NCBI GenBank assembly: GCA_030753365.1
Contig: JASMCJ010000008.1
Location: 928-64,927, forward strand
DNA: 64,000 nucleotides
DNA from: Candidatus Woesearchaeota archaeon
GTDB taxonomy: Archaea; Nanobdellota; Nanobdellia; Woesearchaeales; GCA-2687795
Reading direction: 5' to 3'
Under the pieces are notes generated by a model. That model saw only the letters and a program-made list of their open reading frames with translations. It ran no database searches and had not been told where the DNA came from. Each line of letters opens with the position of its first letter. Position 1 is the first letter of the stretch. The translations under genes were made by a program, and so were the position numbers. Positions 23,009-47,300 of the stretch are shown in pieces.

Positions 23009-25666
23009 GTGAAATATATAAACAAAGAAGGGTTTTTGAGTGTTAGAATGGTTACTTATATAGAAAAGCCTAAAACTGAAAAGGAAATAAGGAATATCCT
23101 TAATCCGATTGTGGATAAGTGGTTTTTTAGTAGGTTTAAGGCTTTTAGTTTGCCGCAGCTTTATGGGGTTATGGAGATTCATTCAAGGAATAATATTCTT
23201 GTTAGCGCGCCTACTGGAGCTACTAAGACGCTTACTTCTTTCCTGAGTATATTGAATGAGTTGATTGATTCTTCAGAGAAAGGAATTCTTGAGGATAGGA
23301 TTTATGCTGTTTATATTTCCCCGCTTAAGGCGCTTAATGAAGATATTAAGGTTAATCTTGTGGAGCCTTTGAGAGAGATGGAGAAGATTGCTGGGAAAGA
23401 GCTGGGCATTAGGGTGGGTGTGAGGACTGGTGACACTTCTGCGTATGAGAAGCAGAAGATGTTGAAGAGTCCGCCGCATATTCTGATTACAACGCCTGAA
23501 AGTTTGGCAATTATTCTTTCTTCTTTTAAGTTTATTGAGCATTTGCAGAATGTTGAATGGTGTATTATTGATGAGATTCATGCGCTTGCAGAGAATAAGA
23601 GAGGAGTGCATCTTTCACTTTCTATGGAGAGGCTGAATGCGTTGTCTTCCCATATGACTAAGGTGGGGTTAAGTGCTACAGTTGCGCCTTTGGAGGAGGT
23701 TGCTAAGTTTCTTGTTGGTTATGAGGATGGCAAAGAGAGGGATTGCAAGGTTGTGGATGTACAGTTTCTTAAGAATATGGATTTGAAGGTGCTGAGCCCG
23801 GTTGCTAATCTGATTGATGTGGAGCAGGAGACTATGCACCATGAGATGTATAAACTTATTGACAAGTTAGTGCAGGAGCATAAGACTACTTTAATTTTTA
23901 CTAATACTAGAGCTGCTACTGAGAGAGTGGTTGACCATTTGAAGGATAAGTTTCCTAAGAATTATACGGAGAATGCTGAGGAGCCTGATGATTCTGATAA
24001 TAAAAGGATTGGAGCGCATCATGGGAGCTTGAGCAAGGAGCATAGGCATAGGATAGAGCAGGGGTTGAGAGATGGTAAGCTGAAAGCGGTTGTTACGAGC
24101 ACTTCTTTGGAGTTGGGTATTGATATTGGTTATATTGATTTGGTGATTTGTTTGGGAAGCCCTAAGAGTATTGCCAGGGCTGTGCAAAGGATTGGAAGGA
24201 GCGGGCATAAGCTGCATGAGACTGCTAAGGGAAGGATTGTTGTGCTTGATAGGGATGACCTTGTTGAGTGCGCTGTGCTGCTGAAGTCTGCAGTGGAGAA
24301 GAAGATTGATAAGATTGATATTCCTACTGATTGCCTTGATGTTCTGGCGCAGCAGATTGATGGGATGGCTATACAGGAGAGAATTCATATTGATGATATG
24401 TTTAAGATTATTAAGAGCAGTTATTGTTATAAGAATCTTAAGAGAAGAGATTTTATGGAGATTATTGATTATCTTAGCGGGAAGTTTGTTTCTTTGGAGG
24501 ATAGGTATATTTATGCTAAGATTTGGTATGATGAAGAGACTGGGATGATTGGCAAGAGAGGCAGGATGGGAAGGGTTATTTATATGACTAATATTGGCAC
24601 TATTCCTGATGAGAGTTTTATTACTGTGAAGACTGGGGAGCAGCCGATTGGGAAGATTGATGAGGGTTTTCTTGAGAAGTTAAAGAGAGGGGATGTGTTT
24701 GTTCTTGGAGGGGAGAAGTATGAGTTTTTGTATAGCAGAGGGATGGTTGCACAGGTTAAGGCTTCGGTTGTGAGACCGCCTACTATTCCTTCATGGTCTA
24801 GTGAGATGCTGCCACTGAGTTTTGATTTGGCTATGGATATTAGCAAGTTTAGAAGGAGGATGGATGATGCTTTTACTAAGCAGAAGAGTAAAAAGGAAAT
24901 TATGAAGTTTATTTATGATTATCTTTATCTTGATGAGAATGCTGCTAATTCTATTTATGAGTATTTTGATGAGCAGTTCCAGTATGCGCAGATTCCTTCT
25001 GATAAGAAGATTGTGGTGGAGTCGTATAATGATGGCAAGCAGAATTATTATTTGTTTCATACTTTGTTTGGGAGAAGGGTTAATGATGTTTTGTCAAGAG
25101 CAGTGGCGTTTGCTATCGCAAGGACTGAACATAAGGATGTTGAGATAGGGATTAATGATAATGGGTTTTATATTGGCTCAGAGAGGAAGCTGCCGATTAT
25201 GAAGGCAGTTAAGCTGTTGAAGTCAGAAGAACTTAGGAAGGTGTGCGAGATGGCGATTGAGAGGACTGAGGTGTTGAAGAGAAGGTTTAGGCATTGCGCT
25301 GGAAGAGCGTTGATGATTCTTAGGTCTTATAAGGGGAGACAGAAGAGGGTGGGGAGGCAGCAGGTTTCTTCTATGATTTTAATGAGCGCGTTGAAGAGGA
25401 TTAATCCCAATTTTACGATTCTTAAGGAGGCTAAGAGGGAAGTGTTAGAAGATTTAATGGATATTGATAATGCTGTGAAGATATTGAAGGGTGTAGAGAA
25501 TGGCAAGATTAGGGTTGTTGAGATTTCCACTAAGATTCCTTCACCGTTTGCGTTTAAGCTGATTGCGCAGGGGCATACTGATATTATGAAGATTGAGGAT
25601 AGGATTGAGTTTCTTAGAAGGATGCATCAGAATGTGCTGGCGAAGATTAGCTTGGGGAAGAAGTAG
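23009..25666 (+). CDS. lhr: Lhr-like large superfamily-2 helicase (DEAD/DEAH box core plus Lhr C-terminal domains)
   Basis: Motif II IDEIHAL, SAT motif, HRIGRSGH motif VI and a long C-terminal domain; 885 aa. Walker A reads APTGATKT, which is non-canonical. Confidence 0.75.
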   Translation: MKYINKEGFLSVRMVTYIEKPKTEKEIRNILNPIVDKWFFSRFKAFSLPQLYGVMEIHSRNNILVSAPTGATKTLTSFLSILNELIDSSEKGILEDRIYAVYISPLKALNEDIKVNLVEPLREMEKIAGKELGIRVGVRTGDTSAYEKQKMLKSPPHILITTPESLAIILSSFKFIEHLQNVEWCIIDEIHALAENKRGVHLSLSMERLNALSSHMTKVGLSATVAPLEEVAKFLVGYEDGKERDCKVVDVQFLKNMDLKVLSPVANLIDVEQETMHHEMYKLIDKLVQEHKTTLIFTNTRAATERVVDHLKDKFPKNYTENAEEPDDSDNKRIGAHHGSLSKEHRHRIEQGLRDGKLKAVVTSTSLELGIDIGYIDLVICLGSPKSIARAVQRIGRSGHKLHETAKGRIVVLDRDDLVECAVLLKSAVEKKIDKIDIPTDCLDVLAQQIDGMAIQERIHIDDMFKIIKSSYCYKNLKRRDFMEIIDYLSGKFVSLEDRYIYAKIWYDEETGMIGKRGRMGRVIYMTNIGTIPDESFITVKTGEQPIGKIDEGFLEKLKRGDVFVLGGEKYEFLYSRGMVAQVKASVVRPPTIPSWSSEMLPLSFDLAMDISKFRRRMDDAFTKQKSKKEIMKFIYDYLYLDENAANSIYEYFDEQFQYAQIPSDKKIVVESYNDGKQNYYLFHTLFGRRVNDVLSRAVAFAIARTEHKDVEIGINDNGFYIGSERKLPIMKAVKLLKSEELRKVCEMAIERTEVLKRRFRHCAGRALMILRSYKGRQKRVGRQQVSSMILMSALKRINPNFTILKEAKREVLEDLMDIDNAVKILKGVENGKIRVVEISTKIPSPFAFKLIAQGHTDIMKIEDRIEFLRRMHQNVLAKISLGKK

Positions 25667-37098: not shown

Positions 37099-39306
37099 CT
37101 ATAACCTTTTATGTTTGAGCAGTAAGGAGTTGCTTACAACGCTTACGCTGCTCATTGCCATTGCTGCTCCTGCAATTATAGGGGATAGGAGCCAGCCTGT
37201 GAAAGGGTAGAGGGCTCCTGCAGCTAACGGTATGCCTAAAGTATTATAGAATAATGCCCAGAACATGTTCTGCTTTATCTTTGACATTGTTAGTTTGCTT
37301 AATCTGATTGATCTTGGTACATCTAAGAGATCGTTTCTCATTAGTACAATGTTTCCTGTTTCCATAGCAACGTCTGTGCCAGATCCCATGGCGATGCCTA
37401 TGTCTGCCTGAGCTAGTGCTGGAGCATCGTTTATTCCATCACCTACCATAGCAACTTTTCCTTTCTTCTGAAGCTTTTTTACATATTTTGCTTTGTCTTC
37501 AGGTAAGACTTCTGCAAATACATGGTTTATGCCTGCCTGCTTGGCGATTGCATTGGCAGTTCTTTTATTGTCTCCGGTTATCATGTAAATAGAGATTTTC
37601 ATGTTTTGTAATTTTTTAACAGCAGCTTTGGATGTTTCTTTGATAGTGTCTGCTACTGTTATTATTCCAATAACTTTTTTTGAGTCTGAGAGGATCATAG
37701 CAGTTTTACCTTGTTCTTCAAGAGGTCCTATTTTGGATTTTAGTTTTTTTATGTTTATTTTGTTGTCTATCATTAACTTTGAATTGCCAAAGTAATACTG
37801 AGTTTTGTTTAGCTTGGCTTTTATGCCATGACCAGGGATTGCCCTGAATCCTTTAGGATTTCCTAAAGAAAGTTTGTTTTGTTTTGCTTTTTTTACAATT
37901 GCTTCTGCTAGTGGATGCTCAGAGTTTTTTTCTATGCTTGCTGCTAGTTGAAGCAATTTGTTTTCAGATTTGATGTTGATGGGAACTATGTCTGTTACTT
38001 CAGGCGTGCCTTTTGTTATTGTTCCTGTTTTATCGAAGATGATGGAGTTTAGCTTGTGTGCTGTTTCAAGGGCATCTCCTCCTTTGATGAGGATTCCTTT
38101 TTTAGCGCCTTTGCCTGTTCCTACCATTATGGCTGTGGGGGTTGCAAGGCCTAAAGCGCAGGGGCAAGCTATTACAAGGACAGAGACTGCAGCGATTAGA
38201 GCAAATTTTATGTCTTTTTCAAATAGAAAGAGCCAGGAAGAGAAGGTTAATATTGCAATGATTATTACGATTGGCACAAAATAAGAGGAGATTGTGTCGG
38301 CAAATCTCTGGATTGGAGCTTTCTTCCCCTGAGCTTCTTCTATGAGCTTTATTATTCTTGATAAAGTGGTGTTTTCTCCTACTTTTGTTGCCTTGAATTT
38401 AAAGCTACCCTGTTTGTTTATGGTGGCTCCGGTTACTATGTCACCTTCCTTCTTTTCAACTGGCATGCTTTCCCCGGTTACCATGCTTTCATCTATTGAT
38501 GAAGAGCCATCAGTTATTTTTCCGTCAACAGGGATTTTTTCTCCGGGTTTTACTAAGATTATATCTCCTTCAACAACATGGTCTATTTTTATTTTGATTT
38601 CTTTCCCATTTCGTATTACTGTTGCTGTTTTAGGAGATAAACCCATGAGCTTTTTTATTGCTTCAGAGGTTTTCCCTTTTGCTATGGCTTCAAGGAATTT
38701 TCCCATTATGACTAAGGTTATGAGGATTGCTGAGGTTTCAAAGTATTGGCCTAGTTCAGGGTTGAATAAGATAGCATATACGCTGAAGAAGTATGCAGCG
38801 CTTGTGCCTACTGCTATTAAAGTGTCCATGTTGGTTGTTTTGTTTTTTAATGCGTTCCATGCACCCCTATAGAATGACCAGCCTACTATGAACTGGACAG
38901 GTGTTGCTAAGAACCATAAAATATAATCTTGATAAGGAATTGTTATATCAAGCCACATGAAAACCATGCCGATTATGAAAGCAGGGATGGCGAAGAATAG
39001 GCTTAGAATGAATTTGTTTTTGAAAGTTTTTATTTCTTCTTTTTGCATTAGTTCATGTTTTTTTATGTTTTCTTCTTCTGAGCCTGGTGACGCTTTGTAG
39101 CCAGTGTTTTTGACTATGGTTATTAATTTTTTTTCTGAAATTAAAGTTTCATCATATAAGACAGAAGCATTGCTTGTAGAGAAGTTTACGTTGGCTTCTT
39201 TAACACCTTTAGACTTTGATAGGGATTTGTTGATTGTGACTGCGCAGGATGCGCATGTCATTCCAGCTATCTGAAGGTTTGTCTTTTTCATTTTTATTAC
39301 CTCCAT
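37099..39306 (-). CDS. copA: Copper-translocating P1B-type ATPase (CopA-like)
   Basis: N-terminal HMA domain GMTCASCAV, membrane CPC motif ([12 protein letters not shown]), DKTGTIT phosphorylation site, GDGINDAP hinge; 735 aa. Confidence 0.9.
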
Positions 39307-39449: not shown

Positions 39450-41225
39450 TCAGCTGATTATCCTTCTGCCAGAAGATGTTATTTTTATGGATTTAAACCG
39501 GCCTTTCTGCTCAACCTGTAATAATCCAATATTTTGAAGGTTGCTTATTTTGACTCGTGTTGTGGGTTTGGTGATTTTGAAGTTAATTGTGATGTCTTTG
39601 TAGGAGACTAATTTGTTAATCACATTGTTTTCATTAATGTATTTTAGAATGTTTAGTTCTAATTCAGATAGTTCTACTTTTTTCTTTAGGTGTTTTCCAT
39701 AGAGGTCTATGGTTTCTGCTTCTATTGCTTTAAGATGTGATTCTTGAATCAGTTCAGGGTTTACAGATAAGATGATTATGCAGTCGTGTTGTGTTGCAAG
39801 GTCTTTTAAGGCATGAATGTTCTTAAGTATGTCTTCAAACTGGTTTTCTGTTAAGAGGTAGTCTAACCTGTCCAGTAAAATAACGCTCTTTTCGCTCTTT
39901 TTAACAAATTCTGAGATTAACTTTGATAGATTCTCAATATTATTTTCGCAGGGTATTCCTTCTACTCTTGTGTATGTCAGCCAAACAAATGAAGTTTTAT
40001 GGAGATTATATCTCTTCTTGATGGCTCTTGGGTCTTCCCTAACAACACCTAAACCAGCAAAACCTCTGTTCAGAGAGCTGATGAATAACTCGTGCGCATG
40101 GTTTTCATCATCTTCTTTTACAAGATAAACTTTTCCCGCATCAAGGCTTATGTCTGCAAGAGTGTATTTGTCTTCTTCTGTCCCTATGTTTATTCCCAGC
40201 TTTTCCAAAGTAACATTGGTTTTATCTAATTCCATCTGAACTTTTTCTTTGGATTTGTATAAGGAGAAAATAAAGAAGAAAATTGTGGTTATAACTACTA
40301 TTACAAAGCCTAAACTAAAGAGATGCCTTCTTTGCATAATCCTTATCTCTTTTCCAACATTGTCTAAAGGAGTCAAAAGAATAAGCCTCCAGGTTTCTGA
40401 ACCAAGATATATGTCAGATGAAGTTATTATGGTTTCACCGAAGCCTTCAAAATGCGAAATAGTGTCCAAACCACCTTTCTTTAACAGATTATTGTAATTG
40501 TTTTCTAGTTCTGAGTAATCTTCTAATTGGCTGCTTTTTAGAATTGTTTCTTTAGAACTCATATCAATTAATAAAAAATAGTTTTCACCAGTTCTTATAA
40601 TTGGATGAAAATAAAGATCATATAATTTGTTAAGTTCAACAATGCTTAGTAGCGTTCCTTTGAATTCTCCAACGAAATTTGGATAAGGGGTGTATTTTGT
40701 TGTTTCAAATAAGGGAGCGGAAACAATAATCTGTAGATTACTGCCTTGATTGACTGAGCCTGCTATGAAGGGCTCGCTTGTTTCTTTGGGTATCTTAAAA
40801 TAGTCCTTGTTTTGGATGTTCATGCCCAAATAATCTGAAAATGAAGGTGAAGAACATTCTACTACATTACCAGCTTTATCTACTCTTATGAGTGAATCGA
40901 TTTTTCCTTCGATTTTTTCATGGACTAGTTTCATATTATCATTGCATTTGGTGATGTCAAATGTTTCCATTACTGGAAATTTGCTAAGAGTGATAAGTTC
41001 ATCTTTTACCTGAAGAATGTGGTTTTCTGTCTGGCTTGCAATATGTTCTGTTTTTATTAATTGATTTTCCTTTAACTGGTTTATTATTACCTCTTCAATA
41101 TCTGAAAATGAAAGATAATTGACTAATATAATTGATCCTATTATGACTAATGAAATTAGCGTAATTAACAATAACTTGTTGCTTTTCAGTATTTTTACCC
41201 TTTCAAAGAATATTGAAGACATCAT
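39450..41225 (-). CDS. Membrane-anchored sensor/regulator: TM1, a large extracytoplasmic Cache-like domain, TM2, a cytoplasmic RecA-fold-like (DUF835-type) domain and a C-terminal winged-helix DNA-binding domain
   Basis: Hydrophobic segments at aa ~17-38 and ~297-320. The C-terminal region ELNILKYINENNVINKLVSYKDITINFKITKPTTRVKISNLQNIGLLQVEQKG is wHTH-like. No histidine kinase or MCP motifs. Confidence 0.45.
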   Translation of the reverse strand: MMSSIFFERVKILKSNKLLLITLISLVIIGSIILVNYLSFSDIEEVIINQLKENQLIKTEHIASQTENHILQVKDELITLSKFPVMETFDITKCNDNMKLVHEKIEGKIDSLIRVDKAGNVVECSSPSFSDYLGMNIQNKDYFKIPKETSEPFIAGSVNQGSNLQIIVSAPLFETTKYTPYPNFVGEFKGTLLSIVELNKLYDLYFHPIIRTGENYFLLIDMSSKETILKSSQLEDYSELENNYNNLLKKGGLDTISHFEGFGETIITSSDIYLGSETWRLILLTPLDNVGKEIRIMQRRHLFSLGFVIVVITTIFFFIFSLYKSKEKVQMELDKTNVTLEKLGINIGTEEDKYTLADISLDAGKVYLVKEDDENHAHELFISSLNRGFAGLGVVREDPRAIKKRYNLHKTSFVWLTYTRVEGIPCENNIENLSKLISEFVKKSEKSVILLDRLDYLLTENQFEDILKNIHALKDLATQHDCIIILSVNPELIQESHLKAIEAETIDLYGKHLKKKVELSELELNILKYINENNVINKLVSYKDITINFKITKPTTRVKISNLQNIGLLQVEQKGRFKSIKITSSGRRIIS

Positions 41226-41433: not shown

Positions 41434-42255
41434 ATGGAAGAAGACAGGAAAGATGAAGAAAAACATGGTACAGAACACCATCACATTAAACATGAACATC
41501 ATCATAGGCATGATAATGAAGGGAAGTTAATCACTAAATCTATTGTTACATTAATCGTAGCTTTGGTATTGATTCTGTTGTTTAATGAGGTTCAGATGAA
41601 TGCTATTTCAGGCATGGTAACTACTGGCGTTTCTGCTGGAGGAGTTAATCAGGCATCAAACTCAGAAACTAAAACAAGCAGCGGATCAACAAGTCTTTCA
41701 CAGAATAAGGACTTATCAGATATAAACTTAGAAGAAATAAAATCAACAGCTCATACGATCGCAGCAGTTTTCCCATTAGAAGGGTTAGATGGAGATGGTG
41801 TTATGGAAGTAATGTTCCCTATAGGAACACCGGAGTATGGTGAAGAGCTTGGAGTAAGTTTTGATGATCCTGTTACAGCTTTAAACGTATTAGCAAAAAT
41901 GTATAGGGGATTAAAAGCAGAAGTAGAAAAAAGCAATCCTGAAGCATTCCAAAGATTTGTAAACTTGGCTTCAAACCCTTATGGTATATCATGTGAATAC
42001 TGTTGTGGAATAGGTCCAGCTGGCGCAGATAAAAAAGGAAATTCTAAATGTGGTTGTGCGCATAATCCAGGAATACTAAGCTTGTCTTTATATCTCTCAG
42101 CATATACAGATTATAGTGATGGTGAAATTCTTAGAGAGGCTATGAGATGGAAAACTCTTTGGTTCCCAAAGAATATGATAGGACTAGGAGCAGATCTTGC
42201 TGGAGGAGACACGTCATCATTAGATAACCTGCCTGGAATGGTAGGAGGTTGTTAA
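41434..42255 (+). CDS. His-rich, Cys-rich membrane-anchored secreted protein ending in LPGMVGGC; strong SD (AGGAGGT)
   Basis: N-terminus HGTEHHHIKHEHHHRHD then one TM. Cys clusters CEYCCG and CGCAHN. C-terminus DNLPGMVGGC followed by stop. Confidence 0.45.
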   Translation: MEEDRKDEEKHGTEHHHIKHEHHHRHDNEGKLITKSIVTLIVALVLILLFNEVQMNAISGMVTTGVSAGGVNQASNSETKTSSGSTSLSQNKDLSDINLEEIKSTAHTIAAVFPLEGLDGDGVMEVMFPIGTPEYGEELGVSFDDPVTALNVLAKMYRGLKAEVEKSNPEAFQRFVNLASNPYGISCEYCCGIGPAGADKKGNSKCGCAHNPGILSLSLYLSAYTDYSDGEILREAMRWKTLWFPKNMIGLGADLAGGDTSSLDNLPGMVGGC

Positions 42256-42277
42256 GAATAAGTTAGGAGGACAAAAA

Positions 42278-42397
42278 ATGAAAAAAAGCACAATGATTTT
42301 TATTTTATTGTTGTTAGTAGTTGTTATATTTGTAGTAGGTTGTTCAACTCAAGGCAGCTATCCAGCACCATCAGGCCCAATAGGAGGCGGATGTTAG
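42278..42397 (+). CDS. Candidate 39 aa lipoprotein-type peptide (lipobox VVGC), Cys at both ends of the predicted mature peptide, ends GGGC
   Basis: AGGAGG 7 nt upstream of the ATG. Sequence MKKSTMIFILLLLVVVIFVVGCSTQGSYPAPSGPIGGGC. Below the ORF-track cutoff. Confidence 0.35.
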   Translation: MKKSTMIFILLLLVVVIFVVGCSTQGSYPAPSGPIGGGC

Positions 42398-42410
42398 ATT
42401 AACAAAGAAA

Positions 42411-42827
42411 ATGCAGTATGTACCAAAAGAAGAGAATAAGGAAGAGGTTTTAAAAGAGCACCAACATAGAGAGGATAATTTAAGGCTGGATAAAGAAAAG
42501 GCTGCTAAGAAAAAAAAAGGAGTGATTATTATTGCTCTGGTATTCTTTTCAGTCATTGCTGCTGTGGTTACCTATGGATTGCTTTCACCTGGAAGGTATG
42601 ATAACTTTGCAAAGTGCCTTACAGAGAAAGGTGCTGTTATGTATGGAGAGGATTGGTGCCAGTATACAAACGCGCAAAAGAATATGTTTGGAAAGTCTTT
42701 CAAATATATTCATTATGAAGTAAATGAGAATCTTAATAAAAGACCTACATGGGTTATTAATGGGAAGAGTTATGAGACTGTGCAGTCTTTTGAAAGATTG
42801 GCTTCATTAACAGGATGTGAAATTTGA
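42411..42827 (+). CDS. Membrane-anchored thioredoxin-fold protein with monothiol CxxT motif (paralog of 45406..45774)
   Basis: YDNFAKCLTEKGAVMYGEDWCQYTNAQKNMFG aligns with YDSFAQCLTEKGVKMYGGYWCPHCANQKDMFG of the downstream paralog. The active site reads WCQYT here and WCPHC there. Confidence 0.5.
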   Translation: MQYVPKEENKEEVLKEHQHREDNLRLDKEKAAKKKKGVIIIALVFFSVIAAVVTYGLLSPGRYDNFAKCLTEKGAVMYGEDWCQYTNAQKNMFGKSFKYIHYEVNENLNKRPTWVINGKSYETVQSFERLASLTGCEI

Positions 42828-42872
42828 GTAAAAGATGATTTTTGAAACATATAAACTTAGGAGGTAAATAGA

Positions 42873-43109
42873 ATGAAACAAACAACAATTGTTACAGTAA
42901 TATTGGCTGTGCTTGTGCTTATTTCAGTTGTTCAAGCAGTTCAGTTGAATGGACTTAAAGCAAAATTGACAGGAGGAGAATTAGGTGTAATAAGTTCTTC
43001 TTCAGGGAACACAGCTCTTACTACCACTCCTTCTTCTGGAAGTGGCAAGAGAGTGTCCAGTCTGCCTAGCAGTATAAAGGATTTGCCACAGATGGTTGGC
43101 GGCTGTTAA
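42873..43109 (+). CDS. Small secreted Ser/Thr/Gly-rich protein ending in LPQMVGGC
   Basis: 78 aa; N-terminal signal/TM, low-complexity SSSSGNTALTTTPSSGSG, C-terminus KDLPQMVGGC then stop; SD AGGAGGT upstream. Confidence 0.4.
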   Translation: MKQTTIVTVILAVLVLISVVQAVQLNGLKAKLTGGELGVISSSSGNTALTTTPSSGSGKRVSSLPSSIKDLPQMVGGC

Positions 43110-43178: not shown

Positions 43179-44423
43179 ATGGAAGAACATCATGAGCATA
43201 AAGAACACCATAAACAAAGTCACCACCATGAATCTGAAGAGCATCATGAACATAGAAAACATCATAAAACTCATCATAAGAAGAGGAGAGTTCCAAATAG
43301 ATCGTTTTATAATAGAATGTATATAACTTTAGGAGTAGTTTTGATTCTATTTATGTTATATAACCTTTCACAGACATTGTCTATTAATATTACACTTGAT
43401 CAAAAGATTGCTAATGTAAAAGAGGCTGCAAAGCCTGCTGAGATTAGTTTAACAGTGATTTCTACAAGCTCATGTAAAGATTGTTATGATATTAATTCAG
43501 CTGTGGAAGTTATTGAGTCAATTGGTGTGAGTGTGACAAGCAAAGAGATTGATTTTTCTTCTGAAGAGGCTAAAGCGCTTATTGCAGAGCATACTATTGA
43601 GAAGGTTCCTACAGTAATCGTGACTGGAGAGATTGATAAGTCTTCTTCATTGAAAAGGACTCTTGGAGAGATAGGAAAAGAGAGCGGTGATGCATATGTG
43701 TTTACCAGTTTAGAACCACCGTTTATTGAAACTAAGACTGGAATGGTTAGAGGGAAGATATCATTGGTGCATCTTAAGAAAGAGAGTTGCGATGATTGCA
43801 TTGATTTAGCTCCGTTAATAAGCCAGTTAAGCGCATCAGGATTAATCCTTGAAGAGAGCGAAGAGATAGATGTTGATAGCACAAAAGGGAAGGAATTAGT
43901 GAAGAAGTATAGTGTTGAAAAGATTCCTACAATTATAATGGATAAGGAAGCTGAGGTTTATCCTAATATTGTACAGAGCTGGAGCCAGCTTGGAAGTGTT
44001 GAAGGAGATGGATCATATGTTATGAGGGAGGTTAGTTCTCCTTATTATAGCATTGAAGAAGAGGCTATTAAGGGATTAATTTCTATGATAATATTAAGTG
44101 ATGAAACTTGTGAGGAATGTTATGATGGAGGAGAATTTCACAGCCCTGTTTTACAAAGGATGGGAATCACATTCAAAGAAGAGGATGAGTTAGATGTTTC
44201 CAGTGAAGAAGGGAAGGAATTGGTGGAGAAATATAGTATAAATCTTGTTCCTACTATAATAATTACAGGAGATATTGAGGAATATCCTGTGTTAGTAAGC
44301 GCATGGGTAGAAGTTGGAACTGAAGAGTCTGATGGAAACTATGTGTTTAGAAAGGTTGAGATTGCTAACCAACCTTATAAGAATCTGACTGATGGAAAGG
44401 TTGTTGGAAGTAGAACAGAATAA
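43179..44423 (+). CDS. His-rich N-terminal tail, one TM, then three tandem thioredoxin/glutaredoxin-fold modules each carrying CxxC (protein-disulfide-oxidoreductase-like)
   Basis: N-terminus MEEHHEHKEHHKQSHHHESEEHHEHRKHHKTHHKK. Three ~100 aa repeats with SCKDCYD, SCDDCID and TCEECYD, each followed by a VPT(V/I)I(V/M) beta-strand motif. Confidence 0.55.
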   Translation: MEEHHEHKEHHKQSHHHESEEHHEHRKHHKTHHKKRRVPNRSFYNRMYITLGVVLILFMLYNLSQTLSINITLDQKIANVKEAAKPAEISLTVISTSSCKDCYDINSAVEVIESIGVSVTSKEIDFSSEEAKALIAEHTIEKVPTVIVTGEIDKSSSLKRTLGEIGKESGDAYVFTSLEPPFIETKTGMVRGKISLVHLKKESCDDCIDLAPLISQLSASGLILEESEEIDVDSTKGKELVKKYSVEKIPTIIMDKEAEVYPNIVQSWSQLGSVEGDGSYVMREVSSPYYSIEEEAIKGLISMIILSDETCEECYDGGEFHSPVLQRMGITFKEEDELDVSSEEGKELVEKYSINLVPTIIITGDIEEYPVLVSAWVEVGTEESDGNYVFRKVEIANQPYKNLTDGKVVGSRTE

Positions 44424-44737: not shown

Positions 44738-45409
44738 ATGAAAGAAGGTAAAAAGAATTATTTATGGGCAGGGGTCGTAGGAGGGTTTACTGCAACAACT
44801 TGTTGCATTGCTCCTATTATTCTTGTTTTGTTAGGCTTTGGAACAGCTGTTAGTATGGCAGTGATGCATCAATTCCATATAGTTAGTATTGTTTCAGGAA
44901 TTGTTCTTATGATACTGATAAGCCTATATCTTGTAAAACGTAAATCCGGAACTTGCAGTATTAATGCAGTTAAACAGAACTGGAAAAGTATTGTGATTGC
45001 AATAATAATCATGGGAGGATCATGGGCAGTCATTAATTATCTTGTTATTGCTCCAGTTGCAGCATCTGTGTATAATAAATTGCCTGTTGAGCAAAAGCCT
45101 TTAGGCAATCTTAAAGAGATGGCTGAATCTCATGGTATGCCTGAGATGGCTAATATTAAGGTTGAGCCTGAGCAGGAAGGAAAGAAATTGATTGTGTTAG
45201 AGATTGAGGGGGTATTCTGCGGCTCTTGCGGCCCTTCTATAGAGTATGATGTTAAAAGTGTTTTAGGGGTCTTGGAAGTAGAAACTTCAGGAACAACTAT
45301 GAGTGTTACATATGATTCTGATGTTACAAGCAAGGATGTGATTGTTGCGAGTATTCATGATCCTTATTCAGCTACAATTATTGAAGAAGAAAAATTATTA
45401 TCTAAGTGA
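44738..45409 (+). CDS. MerT-like membrane domain (vicinal CC) fused to a C-terminal heavy-metal-associated (HMA, MerP/CopZ-like) domain
   Basis: TM1 FTATTCCIAPIILVLLGFG (MerT-like CC motif); C-terminal IVLEIEGVFCGSCG HMA metal-binding motif; 223 aa. Confidence 0.6.
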   Translation: MKEGKKNYLWAGVVGGFTATTCCIAPIILVLLGFGTAVSMAVMHQFHIVSIVSGIVLMILISLYLVKRKSGTCSINAVKQNWKSIVIAIIIMGGSWAVINYLVIAPVAASVYNKLPVEQKPLGNLKEMAESHGMPEMANIKVEPEQEGKKLIVLEIEGVFCGSCGPSIEYDVKSVLGVLEVETSGTTMSVTYDSDVTSKDVIVASIHDPYSATIIEEEKLLSK

Positions 45410-45774
45410 GATGGTTAAAGATGAATATTAAACAAATATTAGGAATTGTTTTGATTTGTTCAGTCTTGGTTATGGTTGGATGCTCAAGCATTAATTATGA
45501 TAGTTTTGCACAATGCCTTACAGAGAAAGGTGTTAAGATGTATGGGGGATATTGGTGTCCGCATTGCGCTAACCAAAAGGATATGTTTGGAAATTCTTTT
45601 GGTTATGTGAATTATATTGAATGTTCGCTTCCTAATAGAGAAGGAAAAACAGAAATATGTATAGAAGAGGATATAAAAGTTTATCCTACATGGGAGTTTG
45701 CAGACGGAAGCAGGAAAGAAAGAGTACATTCATTGGAACAATTGAGCGCGTTTAGCGGATGTAGCATAGAATAA
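45406..45774 (+). CDS. Membrane-anchored/secreted thioredoxin-like protein (WCPHC active site)
   Basis: 122 aa; N-terminal hydrophobic anchor, WCPHC, thioredoxin-fold spacing. Confidence 0.7.
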   Translation: MRWLKMNIKQILGIVLICSVLVMVGCSSINYDSFAQCLTEKGVKMYGGYWCPHCANQKDMFGNSFGYVNYIECSLPNREGKTEICIEEDIKVYPTWEFADGSRKERVHSLEQLSAFSGCSIE

Positions 45775-45798
45775 AAAATATTACGGAGGAAAAACAAA

Positions 45799-46335
45799 AT
45801 GACTTTAACATCAAATGTTACAAATATTTTATCTTTATTGACTATTTTTGGAAATATTTTGATAGGGTATTTCCTTATTCTTTTTATCTTTAAGAAAGAG
45901 ATTAAAGTTTCCGGATTTTTAAAGAAAAATGCTTTACTCTTTGCTTTTATTGTTGCACTAATCGCTACAACTGGGAGTTTATTTTATTCTGAGATTGCTG
46001 GTTATGAACCCTGTAAATTATGTTGGTTTCAAAGAATCTTTATGTATCCACTGGTTATTTTGTTTGGGACAGCTTTAATTAAAAAAACACGTAGTGTTGT
46101 TCACTATGCAATACCTATGAGCATAATAGGAGGATTTATTGCTGCATATCATTATGCTATTCAAAGGTTGACTTATTCAGCTTCTTGTTCAGCAGATGGA
46201 ACTTCATGTACTGCTAAATACTTTTTTCATTATGGTTATATTACTATTCCAATGATGGCTTTGACTGCTTTTATATTAATAATTATTTTATGTTTTATTC
46301 TGAAGAGTAAAAAAATAAAAAGTGATGAAAAGTGA
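45799..46335 (+). CDS. DsbB/BdbC-family disulfide bond formation protein B
   Basis: EPCKLCWFQRIFMYP first-loop CxxC motif and a second Cys pair in the later periplasmic loop (SCSADGTSC); 4 TM; SD GGAGG upstream. Confidence 0.7.
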   Translation: MTLTSNVTNILSLLTIFGNILIGYFLILFIFKKEIKVSGFLKKNALLFAFIVALIATTGSLFYSEIAGYEPCKLCWFQRIFMYPLVILFGTALIKKTRSVVHYAIPMSIIGGFIAAYHYAIQRLTYSASCSADGTSCTAKYFFHYGYITIPMMALTAFILIIILCFILKSKKIKSDEK

Positions 46336-47300
46336 AGACTAAAAAACTTCTTATTTTTTTTATATTTCTTGTTATTATTTCATCTTATGTTTTTGCACAG
46401 TCTGAGATACCTATTGGATTACAGAGGATTATTGATTTTAATAAGCAAAGCACTATGGATTTTGCTGTTAAGATTTCATTTTTTGTGGCTTTTGTTGCAG
46501 GAATTTTAGGGATTTTATCTCCTTGTATATTACCATTTCTGCCTGCTTATTTTTCTTATACGTTTAAAGAGAAGAAGAATATTACAAAGATGACTTTGGT
46601 TTTCTTTTTAGGGTTTTCAACAGTGTTTGTTGCAATGGGCTTGATTGCAGGATATATTGGAGAGAGGTCTTTGATGATTGTACAAAGCAGCTGGCTGGTT
46701 AGTATTGCTGGATTGTTTTTGATAGTATTGGGTGTTATGTCTTTGTTGGGTAAAGGATTTTCTTCTTTTATTAAGTTTCATCATAAGTTTAAGAATGACG
46801 TTATAGGAACTTTTCTGTTTGGAGTGTTTTTTGCTATTGGATGGACTGCTTGCTTAGGTCCAATATTGGGAGGTATCTTGGGGATTGGAGCGATCCTTCA
46901 TAATATGTTTTATTCAGGTTTGCTACTGTTCTTTTATTCTTTAGGTAATCTTGTGCCTTTGTTTCTTTTTTCAGTGTTCTATGATAAGTTTAAGCTTTCT
47001 GAGAGCAAGCTCATTAAAGGGAAGATGTTTAAGTTTTCAGTTTTAGGAAAAGAGTTCAATGTGCATTCTACTAATCTTATTTCTGGGTCTTTGTTTATAA
47101 TAATAGGGAGTATACTAATTATTTTTAAAGGGACTGCTATATTCAATACATGGGATTTTCTTGGAACAAAACAATACTTCTATTCATTCCAGGACCTGCT
47201 TATTGACTGGAAGTATGCAAATATTCTTGGGGTGACTATTTTTGCTTTGTTTGTTGTGATTGTTGGAAGGTTTTTGTGGAAGAATAAGAACAAGAAATAA
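46332..47300 (+). CDS. ccdA: CcdA/DsbD-family transmembrane thiol:disulfide electron-transfer protein, with C-terminal extension
   Basis: LSPCILPFLPAYFSY and GWTACLGPILG conserved-Cys motifs; 322 aa. Confidence 0.75.
   Translation: MKTKKLLIFFIFLVIISSYVFAQSEIPIGLQRIIDFNKQSTMDFAVKISFFVAFVAGILGILSPCILPFLPAYFSYTFKEKKNITKMTLVFFLGFSTVFVAMGLIAGYIGERSLMIVQSSWLVSIAGLFLIVLGVMSLLGKGFSSFIKFHHKFKNDVIGTFLFGVFFAIGWTACLGPILGGILGIGAILHNMFYSGLLLFFYSLGNLVPLFLFSVFYDKFKLSESKLIKGKMFKFSVLGKEFNVHSTNLISGSLFIIIGSILIIFKGTAIFNTWDFLGTKQYFYSFQDLLIDWKYANILGVTIFALFVVIVGRFLWKNKNKK

What the first reader, a model, noticed from the sequence alone, without database searches (positions are those of the whole stretch)
41434..43109. 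Three consecutive secreted products end in a terminal Cys after Gly-Gly: ..NLPGMVGGC, ..PIGGGC and ..DLPQMVGGC
Two proteins, one 273 aa and one 78 aa, are otherwise unrelated but both end in the 8-residue tail LP(G/Q)MVGGC directly before the stop codon. Between them, a 39 aa lipobox peptide with a GGAGG ribosome-binding site would mature to about 18 residues bounded by Cys at both ends and also ends GGC. No TM segment or basic tail follows, so this is not a PGF-CTERM or LPXTG signal. A conserved C-terminal MVGGC could be a soft-metal (Cu(I)) ligand tail, or a substrate tag for a protease or ligase. A Gly-Gly terminus followed by extra residues is how some sulfur-carrier proteins are stored before processing. 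It could also be a recognition tail for the neighbouring thiol-disulfide machinery.
Basis: seen in the sequence. Interest (0 to 1): 0.55.

Follow-up and report, generated by a model that had tools for sequence, protein, structure and literature searches.

The report
Membrane-tethered Gly-Gly-Cys tails in DPANN archaea
Three small-genome (DPANN) archaeal membrane proteins really do end in a conserved Gly-Gly-Cys tail, and they belong to an undescribed, widely conserved gene cluster that sits with the cell's outward-facing thiol-reducing machinery, so the tails most likely act as tethered reactive thiols on the cell surface.

Summary
In a Woesearchaeota window, a 273-aa protein (LARGE), a 39-aa lipopeptide and a 78-aa protein (small) end in ..LPGMVGGC, ..PIGGGC and ..LPQMVGGC. 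All three endings are conserved. 119 of 120 LARGE homologues and 112 of 113 small homologues end in VGGC with the Cys as last residue. 21 loci carry the lipopeptide, ending GGGC, GGGCG or GGGCGG.

LARGE and small form a conserved adjacent gene pair across Woese-, Pace-, Nano-, Micr- and Iainarchaeota. Small is LARGE without its globular core: same TM and juxtamembrane module, same tail. The tails co-vary: M/M in 70 pairs, Q/Q in 4, never mixed, with Q arising at several tree positions.

The usual operon is LARGE, small, a membrane protein with three CxxC thioredoxin domains, then CcdA/DsbD. The lipopeptide is always directly upstream of a conserved monothiol (CxxT) thioredoxin-like gene. CopA, ArsR and BlaI/M48 regulators are frequent neighbours.

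LARGE has no Pfam, NCBIfam or PDB relative. It has five invariant core Cys plus one His.

Best reading, inferred: single-Cys swinging arms that are clients or cofactors of a CcdA-to-thioredoxin pathway. A Cu(I)-handling role is not excluded. Sorting signals, sulfur-carrier storage and lipobox readings fail.

The parts
41434..42255 (+). LARGE: 273-aa type-II membrane protein. It has a His/Lys-rich cytoplasmic N-terminus, one TM helix with the juxtamembrane motif FNEVQMN, a disordered Ser/Thr/Gly linker, a helical Cys-rich ectodomain, and the tail ..SSLDNLPGMVGGC.
   Evidence: ORF. More than 1151 homologues at 90% clustering, with no Pfam or NCBIfam match. AlphaFold2 model pLDDT 82.8, core above 90. 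Only 279 representatives at 50% identity in 1.84 billion proteins.
41992..42063 (+). Invariant Cys/His cluster of LARGE: S-C187-E-Y-C190-C191-G ... C206-G-C208-x-H210-N-P.
   Evidence: Invariant columns in the 44-sequence alignment A1. 171 of 180 family members have exactly 6 Cys, five in the core and one in the tail.
42220..42252 (+). C-terminal tail of LARGE (L263-C273: LDNLPGMVGGC), with Cys as the last residue.
   Evidence: 119 of 120 homologues end in MVGGC. L263, P267, V270, G271, G272 and C273 are invariant. Model pLDDT is 84 for residues 261-270 and 68 for 271-273, so the tail is not modelled as fully disordered.
42278..42397 (+). 39-aa lipopeptide: signal peptide with lipobox VVGC (mature Cys23), then STQGSYPAPSGPIGGGC. 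The mature peptide is 17 residues with Cys at both ends.
   Evidence: Homologues in 21 of 200 loci end SGP(I/V)GGGC, GGGCG or GGGCGG. It is always immediately upstream of the monothiol Trx gene (18 of 18 loci).
42411..42827 (+). TM-anchored thioredoxin-like protein with a conserved monothiol active site W-C-Q-Y-T (CxxT), plus a probable structural Cys pair.
   Evidence: about 20 loci carry 'WC.YT' with 3 Cys and no lipobox. This is distinct from the canonical 'WCPHC' lipoprotein form with about 7 Cys. tblastn.
42873..43109 (+). Small: 78-aa protein with a TM helix and juxtamembrane VQAVQLN, a Ser/Thr-rich linker, and the tail SLPSSIKDLPQMVGGC. It resembles LARGE without its globular core.
   Evidence: hhalign against LARGE. 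It follows LARGE on the same strand in 74 pairs. 112 of 113 members have exactly one Cys.
43062..43106 (+). C-terminal tail of small (LPSSIKDLPQMVGGC).
   Evidence: L71, M74, V75, G76, G77 and C78 are invariant in alignment A2. Its codons differ from those of the LARGE tail at nearly every synonymous site. Across 74 pairs the same codon is used at 44% of identical residues, so gene conversion does not explain the identity.
43179..44423 (+). mTrx: 414-aa membrane-anchored protein with a His-rich N-terminus and three thioredoxin/PDO-like domains (CKDC, CDDC, CEEC).
   Evidence: Pfam Thioredoxin_3, Thioredoxin and Glutaredoxin; NCBIfam PDO_seleno_TRX. Present in 60 of 78 loci directly after small, with three CxxC in 50 of 58 members.
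46332..47300 (+). CcdA/DsbD-type transmembrane electron transporter.
   Evidence: tblastn E 1e-112 to the cluster found in 59 of 78 loci. A cluster representative hits Pfam DsbD_TM at 6.9e-17.
45406..46335 (+). Canonical CPHC thioredoxin-like lipoprotein (45406-45774) and a DsbB/BdbC-type disulfide oxidoreductase (45799-46335). This is an oxidising pair in the same gene string.
   Evidence: (NF002849 at 1.4e-42 for DsbB).
44738..45409 (+). MerT/HMA (MerTP-like) heavy-metal transport and binding protein inside the gene string.
   Evidence: Pfam HMA at 8.5e-6, and MerT at 3.7e-5 (24.2 bits, below its gathering score of 32.9). NCBIfam MerTP_fusion at 8.6e-10, also below its curated cut-off.
39450..41225 (-). 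Divergently transcribed membrane sensor/regulator (extracellular domain, TM, DUF835, winged helix). Candidate regulator of the operon.
   Evidence: Pfam DUF835 at 1.3e-25. Found in the same divergent position in 20 of 78 loci.
37099..39306 (-). CopA-type copper P-type ATPase.
   Evidence: ORF features (MTCASC, CPC, DKTGT). Homologues lie within 7 kb of the pair in 13 of 78 loci by de novo clustering, and in 10 by BLAST with the window's CopA.

Best explanation
The three tails are membrane-tethered, single-cysteine 'swinging arms' exposed on the outer face of the cytoplasmic membrane of DPANN archaea.

Each arm has three parts: an anchor (a TM helix in LARGE and small, an N-terminal lipid in the lipopeptide), a flexible low-complexity linker, and a Gly-flanked Cys at or next to the C-terminus.

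The arms take part in thiol-disulfide exchange with the thioredoxin-fold proteins encoded beside them. CcdA imports reducing equivalents from the cytoplasm. The three-domain CxxC membrane thioredoxin (mTrx) passes them on. The arm cysteines of LARGE and small are its clients, and are either kept as free thiols or cycled through mixed disulfides. The lipopeptide's Cys is the dedicated partner of the monothiol CxxT thioredoxin-like protein, as a resolving or carrier thiol, much as glutathione serves a monothiol glutaredoxin.

LARGE's helical ectodomain, with five invariant Cys and one His, is the catalytic or substrate-binding unit that its own arm and the arm of small reach into. Small is a core-less paralogue that supplies an extra arm. 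It probably sits next to LARGE and mTrx through the shared juxtamembrane motif.

Shown: the anatomy, conservation, gene linkage, tail co-variation and Cys census. Inferred: the outward topology, the direction of electron flow, that the arm Cys is redox-active, and what the ultimate substrate is (oxidised surface thiols, sulfur species, or a metal).
For: 1. The terminal Cys is conserved down to the most divergent members. LARGE has exactly six Cys and small has exactly one.

2. Gene linkage in 78 loci from five DPANN lineages follows the order LARGE, small, mTrx (60 loci), CcdA (59 loci). The window has the same set.

3. The lipopeptide gene is always directly upstream of a conserved monothiol 'WC.YT' Trx-like gene (18 of 18 loci). 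This holds even where that pair lies away from LARGE and small.

4. The tails of LARGE and small co-vary: M/M in 70 pairs, Q/Q in 4, mixed in 0. Q-type tails occur at four or more separate places in a neighbour-joining tree built without the tail. In L045 both tails lose Pro. In a paralogous pair in L063 both lose LP. Synonymous codons differ, so selection acts on the peptide.

5. An unbiased metagenome scan for P-x-M-V-G-G-C-stop found only LARGE-type ORFs (60), small-type ORFs (about 75) and short random ORFs (about 17). No third family appeared.

6. The juxtamembrane motif [NQ]xxQ[ILTMV] is present in LARGE (46 of 69), small (46 of 51) and mTrx (19 of 76), against 4 of 467 other TM proteins in the same loci.

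7. At least 10 representative clusters fuse LARGE to a polytopic membrane domain with a TM-embedded GCP(S/T)CG motif.

9. There is precedent for Gly-flanked C-terminal Cys arms in SoxY (GGCGG; PMC6067878), and for DsbD-dependent protection of single cysteines by DsbG (PMC4624244, PMC3322552).
Against: - There is no experimental datum, and all functional links rest on gene neighbourhood.
- The CcmH match is marginal. Foldseek and hmmsearch against the PDB find nothing.
- I could not inspect model coordinates, so whether the tail Cys lies near a core Cys is unknown.
- No core column of LARGE co-varies with the M-to-Q change, so the common partner of the two tails is unidentified.
- Metal-related neighbours (CopA, ArsR, the MerTP-like protein, Met/His-rich proteins), His-rich cytoplasmic N-termini (12.8% His) and EMxAxMHP inserts before some tails fit a metal role equally well.
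- Six Cys in LARGE would also fit three structural disulfides.
Confidence: 0.45

Rival explanations
1. Soft-metal (Cu(I), possibly Hg/Zn) handling. The Met/Cys tails and LARGE's Cys/His cluster bind Cu(I) at the outer membrane face, either accepting it from CopA or buffering it. The CcdA-thioredoxin pathway only keeps the ligand thiols reduced. This would be an archaeal counterpart of the bacterial Scs system.
For: CopA is within 7 kb in 13 of 78 loci, roughly 8 times the chance expectation for genomes of about 1 Mb. ArsR and BlaI/M48 regulators are nearby, and the MerTP-like protein sits inside the window operon. Other neighbours are Met/His-rich LTxxQ proteins, and L063 has a small protein with TRASH-like Cys motifs, recognised by eye only. 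An 'EMxAxMHP' insert lies just before the tail in some small and LARGE members. Cytoplasmic N-termini are His-rich or Cys-rich. CxxCC and CxC motifs are typical Cu(I)-thiolate ligand patterns (general knowledge). ScsB/ScsC link DsbD-type reduction to copper tolerance and bind Cu(I) (PMC10907172, PMC8900818).
Against: Met at position -5 is replaced by Gln at least three or four times independently, in both tails. The copper genes are far less constant than CcdA and mTrx. The lipopeptide tail has no Met or His. A single thiol per arm is a weak chelator unless arms pair up.
Confidence: 0.25
2. Structural or assembly disulfide. The terminal Cys is simply the sixth Cys of LARGE and pairs with the odd core Cys. 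The Cys of small forms a covalent disulfide with LARGE, with another small, or with the lipopeptide, building a disulfide-linked surface complex. The thioredoxins would act as isomerases during assembly. This resembles tailpiece cysteines in IgM polymerisation supervised by the monothiol ERp44 (general knowledge).
For: There is an even Cys count of 6 in 171 of 180 LARGE proteins, and any seventh Cys is always N-terminal. Small has exactly one Cys. The tail is modelled with pLDDT 68-84, not as a free coil. Co-variation of the two tails would also follow from tail-tail contact. DsbB- and DsbA-like oxidising genes lie in the same islands.
Against: A CcdA reducing pathway is the most constant neighbour, whereas DsbB and DsbA are rare (DsbB in 2 loci, DsbA-like in about 10). 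Invariant Gly-Gly and long disordered linkers suggest mobility rather than a fixed cross-link. The lipopeptide is linked to a monothiol thioredoxin, which points to turnover.
Confidence: 0.15
3. C-terminal modification or anchoring signal. V-G-G-C is read as a lipobox-like motif, and the Cys is lipidated (for example by the Lgt homologues found nearby) or otherwise processed, giving proteins anchored at both ends.
For: M-V-G-G-C fits the loose PROSITE lipobox pattern (my recollection of the pattern). A bona fide Lgt (PF01790 at 8e-79, TIGR00544 at 4e-64) lies within 7 kb in 10 of 78 loci. Co-variation of the two tails would fit one shared modifying enzyme.
Against: No hydrophobic h-region precedes the tails. 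The real lipoboxes in these loci have V/I/S/T/A at position -2, never Gly, and are followed by Ser or Thr. The genuine lipoproteins in the operon already explain Lgt's proximity. Lgt is absent from most neighbourhoods. Distant family members have VGEC, VGDC and RGGC tails, which are incompatible with a lipobox.
Confidence: 0.07
4. Known sorting or carrier systems: a PGF-CTERM/archaeosortase or LPXTG/sortase signal, or a ThiS/MoaD/QbsE-type sulfur carrier stored with residues after Gly-Gly.
For: Only superficial resemblance: an 'LP' in the motif, and Gly-Gly before the end.
Against: Nothing follows the Cys, so there is no TM segment or basic tail. LARGE is helical and membrane-anchored, not beta-grasp. 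No sortase, archaeosortase, E1-like or JAMM gene recurs in 78 neighbourhoods.
Confidence: 0.02

Closest known systems
SoxY sulfur-carrier protein of the Sox system (C-terminal GGCGG swinging arm)
   Same: Both are extracytoplasmic, with a single Cys flanked by glycines at the very C-terminus of a flexible arm. Several lipopeptide homologues end literally in GGGCGG. In SoxY the arm cysteine carries the substrate between enzyme active sites (PMC6067878, citing Sauve et al. 2007).
   Different: SoxY is a soluble beta-sandwich protein partnered with SoxZ in sox clusters. Here the arms hang from a TM helix or a lipid, LARGE is all-helical, no Sox genes are nearby, and there is no sequence or fold relationship.
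DsbD/CcdA-dependent extracytoplasmic reducing pathways: DsbG protecting single cysteines, CcmG to CcmH, and ScsB/ScsC/ScsD/ScsA
   Same: A CcdA/DsbD_TM transporter together with membrane-anchored thioredoxin-fold proteins, in one operon with clients that carry lone or clustered cysteines. Copper and envelope-stress genes are nearby, as with Scs (PMC3322552, PMC4624244, PMC10907172).
   Different: The clients (LARGE, small, lipopeptide) are new families. The thioredoxin protein has three tandem PDO-like domains on a TM anchor. A conserved monothiol CxxT thioredoxin is paired with a ribosomal lipopeptide. The hosts are archaea with a single membrane.
CcmH periplasmic domain (cytochrome c maturation thiol-disulfide oxidoreductase, PDB 2hl7)
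   Different: The score is marginal and is not seen by Foldseek or hmmsearch. The motif is CxxCC...CxC.H rather than LRCxxC. No Pfam CcmH match was found, and no cytochrome c maturation gene was identified among the recurrent neighbour families that were annotated.
Monothiol glutaredoxin with glutathione, and ERp44 (CxxS) with tailpiece cysteines
   Same: A thioredoxin-fold protein with one active-site Cys works together with a small thiol or with a C-terminal tail cysteine of a client. Here a CxxT thioredoxin-like gene is invariably coupled to the GGGC lipopeptide gene.
   Different: The thiol partner is a gene-encoded, lipid-anchored peptide rather than a metabolite. There is no homology beyond the thioredoxin fold. 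The analogy comes from general knowledge and was not tested.

Membership tests
PGF-CTERM / archaeosortase sorting signals | C-terminal motif followed by a hydrophobic TM segment and a basic tail; an archaeosortase gene in the genome. | tested here: not met
   Cys is the last residue in 119 of 120 LARGE and 112 of 113 small proteins, and nothing follows it. No archaeosortase-like family recurs in 78 neighbourhoods.
LPXTG / sortase substrates | LPXTG pentapeptide, then a hydrophobic stretch and a charged tail. | tested here: not met
   The motif is LPxMVGGC-COOH, with no Thr-Gly at positions 4-5 and no downstream segment.
Bacterial-type lipoprotein (Lgt substrate) | N-terminal signal peptide whose h-region ends in the lipobox [LVI][ASTVI][GAS]C. 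| tested here: met
   This applies to the N-terminus of the 39-aa peptide only: MKKSTMIFILLLLVVVIFVVGC-ST. 21 homologues have the same layout. Lgt genes are present in 10 related loci.
Bacterial-type lipoprotein (Lgt substrate), applied to the C-terminal tails | Lipobox preceded by a membrane-embedded h-region; position -2 is usually A/S/T/V/I. | tested here: not met
   No hydrophobic stretch precedes LPxMVGGC. Gly at -2 is absent from the genuine lipoboxes in these loci. Distant members end in VGEC, VGDC or RGGC.
SoxY | C-terminal GGCGG on a SoxY beta-sandwich, with a SoxZ partner and a sox gene cluster. | tested here: not met
   A Gly-flanked C-terminal Cys is present, and some lipopeptides end in GGGCGG. 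But there are no SoxY or SoxZ family hits, LARGE is helical, and no sox genes are in the neighbourhoods.
Ubiquitin-like sulfur carriers (ThiS/MoaD/QbsE) | Beta-grasp fold and a cytoplasmic location; a C-terminal Gly-Gly activated by an E1-like enzyme; extra residues removed by a JAMM peptidase. | tested here: not met
   The proteins have an N-terminal TM anchor or a lipobox and an all-helical model. No ThiS/MoaD family hit was found. No E1 or JAMM genes recur nearby.
CcmH | Three-helix periplasmic domain with LRCxxC; encoded with ccm genes. | tested here: inconclusive
HdrB-type CCG domain | CX(31-39)CCGX(35-36)CXXC binding a non-cubane [4Fe-4S] cluster; cytoplasmic. | tested here: not met
   There is no Pfam CCG hit. 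The spacing is CxxCCG-x14-CxC. The domain follows an N-in TM anchor, so it is predicted to lie outside the cell.
DsbD/CcdA-dependent reducing pathway (operon backbone) | A DsbD_TM/CcdA membrane protein with two conserved Cys, plus an extracytoplasmic thioredoxin-fold CxxC partner. | tested here: met
   Pfam DsbD_TM at 6.9e-17. The window copy at 46332-47300 carries SPCILP and TACLGP. mTrx has three CxxC in 50 of 58 members. Electron transfer itself cannot be tested here.

The most novel reading that the evidence does not exclude
DPANN archaea encode their own surface thiol cofactors. These would be ribosomally made Gly-Gly-Cys peptides tethered to the membrane by a TM helix (small), by a lipid (the lipopeptide), or carried in cis (the LARGE tail). 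They would act as carrier or resolving thiols for a previously unknown extracytoplasmic Cys/His enzyme (LARGE) and for a monothiol thioredoxin, recharged through a three-domain thioredoxin and CcdA. In effect this is a protein-based, membrane-bound substitute for low-molecular-weight thiols or SoxY-type carriers in organisms with minimal metabolism.
Probability: 0.25. Interest if true: 0.8.

Novelty: new variant of a known kind. Interest (0 to 1): 0.62.

Why it matters
DPANN archaea have tiny genomes, and most of their conserved surface proteins have no known function. This analysis defines a conserved module that is unannotated in Pfam and NCBIfam and for which a full-text search for the tail sequence (MVGGC) found no relevant paper. 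The module has three parts: two protein families and a lipopeptide, present in five DPANN lineages.

Its signature is easy to recognise and to test: a terminal Cys after Gly-Gly on a tethered arm. It is tied to the only route these cells have for sending reducing power to their outer surface.

If the arms are carrier or buffer thiols, this would be a new way of doing extracytoplasmic thiol chemistry, and a genetically encoded parallel to SoxY arms or to the glutathione/glutaredoxin pair. If they handle copper, it would be an archaeal analogue of the Scs system.

Either way, the tail is a handle for labelling, trapping partners, and annotating several hundred 'hypothetical' protein clusters.

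Tried and rejected
- **Literature.** 'MVGGC' gives no relevant paper. 'DPANN + CcdA + thioredoxin' gives none.
- **Family and structure searches for LARGE.** Pfam and NCBIfam give no real hit for LARGE, small or the lipopeptide. Foldseek against the PDB and hmmsearch against the PDB find nothing. The afdb50 fold library was unavailable.
- **Fused membrane domain.** It returned only 2 hits and no annotation. Pfam and NCBIfam on that domain and on other long family members were also empty, apart from an FKBP domain in one protein.
- **Core-tail co-variation.** I looked for a LARGE core column that co-varies with the M-to-Q tail change, to locate a docking site. None was consistent.
- **LARGE+small complex model.** I planned an AlphaFold model of the complex using the natural read-through fusion P0038. 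The tool also returns no coordinates, so the job was not run.
- **First profile-profile comparison.** The comparison was confounded by P0038 being in A1. It was redone without P0038.
- **Gene conversion.** Rejected as the cause of tail identity, because synonymous codons differ.
- **Fourth GGGC end.** The one near 23695 lies out of frame inside a helicase gene.
- **Signal-peptidase cleavage of small.** Cleavage at VQA|VQL was considered. Many homologues have F or Y at -3 or T at -1, and the same segment is conserved in the uncleavable LARGE. It is more likely an anchor, but this is unresolved.


Full report
**1. What is in the window**

The window has 36% G+C. Its 273-aa protein is 100% identical to a protein of a Candidatus Woesearchaeota MAG.

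On the + strand, between 41434 and 47300, lies one tight gene string:
- LARGE, 41434-42255, 273 aa, ends ..NLPGMVGGC
- a 39-aa lipobox peptide, 42278-42397, ends ..PIGGGC
- a 138-aa TM-anchored thioredoxin-like protein, 42411-42827
- small, 42873-43109, 78 aa, ends ..DLPQMVGGC
- a 414-aa membrane protein with three thioredoxin/PDO-like CxxC domains, 43179-44423
- a 79-aa TM protein
- a MerT/HMA-like protein
- a CPHC thioredoxin-like lipoprotein
- a DsbB/BdbC homologue
- CcdA, 46332-47300

Upstream, on the other strand, are a DUF835 sensor/regulator and a CopA ATPase.

Only these three ORFs of 949 (at least 30 aa) end in GGC, against an expectation of about 0.04. A fourth GGGC-stop near 23695 is out of frame within a helicase gene.

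**2. The tails are conserved**

LARGE belongs to a family with more than 1151 clusters at 90% identity, all 'hypothetical' and without Pfam domains. 119 of the best 120 end in (L/I)P(G/S)MVGGC.

An exhaustive HMMER search of 1.84 billion representatives finds 279 clusters at 50% identity. The C-terminal Cys persists to the edge of the family, with variants VGSC, RGGC, VGEC, VGDC, QGGC and IGGCG. Most exceptions are fragments cut by contig ends.

Small has 47 listed homologues with one architecture: a TM helix, then 'VQAVQLN', a Ser/Thr-rich linker, and 'SLPSSIKDLPQMVGGC'.

The lipopeptide recurs in 21 of 200 loci examined. It has a lipobox, a Pro-rich spacer, and 'SGP(I/V)GGGC', often with one or two more residues (GGGCG, GGGCGG).

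**3. LARGE and small are a conserved gene pair and are related**

A scan of one genome per GTDB species returned 213 loci encoding a relative, of which 80 were kept. They are labelled Woese-, Pace-, Nano-, Micr- and Iainarchaeota. A few carry Methanosarcinales or Patescibacteria labels, which I did not verify and which may reflect binning.

In 74 cases a small gene lies beside LARGE on the same strand, in all but one locus (L074) just downstream.

A profile-profile comparison, with the read-through fusion P0038 removed, aligns the N-terminal TM and juxtamembrane part of small to that of LARGE (probability 94%, E 1.3e-7), and also aligns the 19-residue tails. Small therefore looks like LARGE with the globular domain deleted.

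A metagenome scan for DNA encoding P-x-M-V-G-G-C-stop gave 152 matches: 60 LARGE, about 75 small-type TM-anchored short proteins, and about 17 short random ORFs. No third family appeared. Within what could be sampled, the tail is private to these two families.

**4. The two tails co-evolve**

- At position -5, pairs are M/M (70) or Q/Q (4), never mixed.
- In a neighbour-joining tree built without the tail, Q-type LARGE proteins (L037, L059, L076, L078/L079) sit in four different places.
- In L045 both tails lack the Pro.
- In one of the two pairs of L063 both tails lack LP.
- In the window, the codons of the two tails differ at almost every synonymous site. Across all pairs the same codon is used at 44% of identical residues, near what codon bias alone gives.

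Selection therefore acts on the peptide, and some factor common to both tails constrains them. That factor could be a shared partner, mutual contact, or a shared environment. Gln is commonly used as a methionine-sulfoxide mimic (general knowledge), and the Q forms occur in lineages labelled Micrarchaeum sp., Micrarchaeia or unclassified archaeon.

**5. Cysteine census and anatomy**

171 of 180 LARGE proteins have exactly six Cys: C187, C190, C191, C206 and C208 in 'SCE(Y/F)CCG..x14..CGC.H(N)P', plus the terminal Cys. A seventh Cys, where present, is always in the N-terminal region. 112 of 113 small proteins have exactly one Cys.

The N-terminal cytoplasmic segment of LARGE is 12.8% His. mTrx in the window, and some small variants, also carry His- or Cys-rich N-terminal extensions.

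The AlphaFold2 model of LARGE has pLDDT 82.8, with the core above 90. It shows a long TM helix, a disordered linker and an all-helical ectodomain. The tail has pLDDT 84 falling to 68.

**6. Context**

De novo clustering of the neighbours in 78 loci gives these recurrent families:

| Neighbour family | Loci (of 78) | Basis |
|---|---|---|
| 3x CxxC membrane thioredoxin (mTrx) | 60 | three CxxC in 50 of 58 members, |
| CcdA/DsbD_TM | 59 | Pfam 6.9e-17, |
| VKOR-type thioredoxin-like protein | 28 | |
| DUF835 regulator, divergent | 20 | |
| M48 peptidase | 15 | |
| BlaI-type repressor | 14 | |
| CopA | 13 | |
| Lgt | 10 | PF01790 8e-79, |
| DsbA-like, DoxX, DUF1573 (with or without rhodanese), ArsR, a Met/His-rich LTxxQ protein | fewer | |

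The thioredoxin-like family splits in two. One form is a canonical 'WCPHC' lipoprotein with about 7 Cys. The other is a TM-anchored 'WC.YT' monothiol form with 3 Cys; this is the one in the window between the lipopeptide and small.

The lipopeptide gene is always immediately upstream of this monothiol gene (18 of 18 loci), including loci where the pair lies kilobases from LARGE and small.

A juxtamembrane motif [NQ]xxQ[ILTMV] is shared by LARGE, small and mTrx but is nearly absent from other TM proteins in the same loci.

At least ten representative clusters fuse LARGE to a polytopic membrane domain with a TM-embedded GCP(S/T)CG motif. L063 has a stand-alone copy of this domain.

**7. Interpretation**

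Three features fit a mobile arm that must reach into a narrow site:
- one Cys per arm
- glycines next to it
- a flexible tether to the membrane

The model case is SoxY, whose C-terminal GGCGG cysteine carries sulfur intermediates (PMC6067878). The constant company of CcdA and thioredoxin-fold proteins fits arms that are serviced by, or are part of, a reducing relay. DsbD-dependent DsbG protects lone cysteines in this way, and ScsB/C/D do so under copper stress (PMC4624244, PMC3322552, PMC10907172). The obligatory pairing of a monothiol thioredoxin with a single-Cys lipopeptide recalls a monothiol glutaredoxin and its thiol co-substrate.

I therefore favour 'tethered redox-active thiol arms in a CcdA-to-thioredoxin pathway, with LARGE as a new Cys/His ectodomain they serve' (confidence 0.45).

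A copper-handling version (0.25) is kept alive by CopA, the MerTP-like protein and ArsR nearby, by Met/His-rich neighbours, by the EMxAxMHP inserts before some tails, and by the CxxCC/CxC motifs. It is weakened by the recurrent Met-to-Gln exchange and by the looser linkage to copper genes.

A purely structural disulfide (0.15) fits the even Cys count. It fits less well with a reducing pathway as the constant neighbour.

A lipobox-like modification signal (0.07) fits the loose pattern and the nearby Lgt. It fails on the missing h-region, the Gly at -2 and the acidic or basic variants.

Known sorting signals and ubiquitin-like sulfur carriers fail their defining features.

**8. Novelty**

The backbone, CcdA plus extracytoplasmic thioredoxins, is a known kind of system. 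The clients and their shared, co-evolving C-terminal signature are not described in Pfam, in NCBIfam, or in a full-text search for the tail sequence MVGGC. I rate it a new variant of a known kind, of above-average interest. The function is inferred from context only.

Noticed in passing
window 42411-42827; L001, L003-L008, L014, L015, L020, L024, L028 and others: The thioredoxin-like gene between the lipopeptide and small is not a decayed CxxC. It is a conserved monothiol subfamily ('WC.YT', CxxT, 3 Cys, TM-anchored). It is distinct from the canonical 'WCPHC' lipoprotein paralogue at 45406-45774.
   Followed up: yes
L047 9266-10669, L074 7225-8646, P0173, P0175, P0176, P0180, P0181, P0188, P0207, P0273; stand-alone copy at L063 14449-14958: LARGE is fused in at least 10 representative clusters to an unannotated polytopic membrane domain of about 230 aa. 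The domain has a TM-embedded 'S(L/M)GCP(S/T)CG' motif followed by 'P(L/F)KG(L/I)E(L/V)K', and sometimes a second CxxC after the last helix. There is no Pfam or NCBIfam match, and only 2 database homologues were found by word search.
   Followed up: partly
window 41536-41619, 42885-42960 and about 43300-43370; related loci: A juxtamembrane polar motif [NQ]xxQ[ILTMV] follows the single TM helix of LARGE, small and mTrx. It is nearly absent (4 of 467) from other TM proteins in the same loci. This suggests the three helices share a partner or pack together.
   Followed up: partly
window 41434-41530 and 43179-43290; L070 4923-5252, L051 10891-11295, L106, L189, L176, L105: His-rich (sometimes CC- or C2H2-like) cytoplasmic N-terminal extensions recur on LARGE, on mTrx and on some small proteins. 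In LARGE this segment is 12.8% His. Their role is unknown; they may bind metal on the cytoplasmic side.
   Followed up: partly
L097 (ORF ending 510-533), L185, P0222; neighbour family 'u171', e.g. L024 2551-3087: An 'E-M-x-A-x-M-H-P-(D/E)' insert lies immediately before the MVGGC tail in some small and LARGE members. The same motif occurs in a neighbouring LTxxQ, Met-rich secreted protein family. It may be a Cu(I)-type Met/His site.
   Followed up: no
L003 16040-16801, L014 6871-7632, and 8 further loci: Bona fide bacterial-type prolipoprotein diacylglyceryl transferase (Lgt; PF01790 at 8e-79, TIGR00544 at 4e-64) is encoded in DPANN archaeal contigs near this operon, together with proteins that have classical lipoboxes.
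   Followed up: partly
window 42238-42290; 32 of 75 LARGE genes in L001-L080: The Gly-Gly codons of the LARGE tail often read GGAGG. In about 21 loci this lies 6-10 nt upstream of the next gene's start codon, so the tail-coding sequence may double as the ribosome-binding site of the downstream gene.
   Followed up: partly
P0038 (335 aa): This is a read-through fusion of LARGE and small (..LPGIVGGC-EGGKK-MKQATL..LPQMVGGC). The stop codon has been lost or mis-sequenced, and the cluster has a single member.
   Followed up: no
window 39450-41225 (-): A 591-aa protein combines an extracellular sensor-like domain, a TM segment, DUF835 and a C-terminal winged helix. It is divergently transcribed from the operon in 20 of 78 loci. 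It is a candidate one-component membrane regulator of an uncharacterised archaeal type.
   Followed up: no
L013 7301-8701, L024, L034 (three tandem genes upstream of CcdA and LARGE): Tandem DUF1573 (CxC) proteins sit next to the operon, and one is fused to a rhodanese domain with a lipobox. DoxX-family membrane proteins occur in 10 loci. These are further hints of extracytoplasmic sulfur or thiol chemistry.
   Followed up: no
window 23695: '..CYSCAFGGGC*' is an out-of-frame reading inside the 885-aa helicase gene at 23009-25666. It is not a gene.
   Followed up: yes
L039, L057, L065, L077; L001, L003, L007 and others: Some loci carry record titles naming Patescibacteria, 'bacterium' or Methanosarcinales, although their gene content matches the DPANN loci. 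This is probably a binning or labelling artefact, but it was not checked.
   Followed up: no
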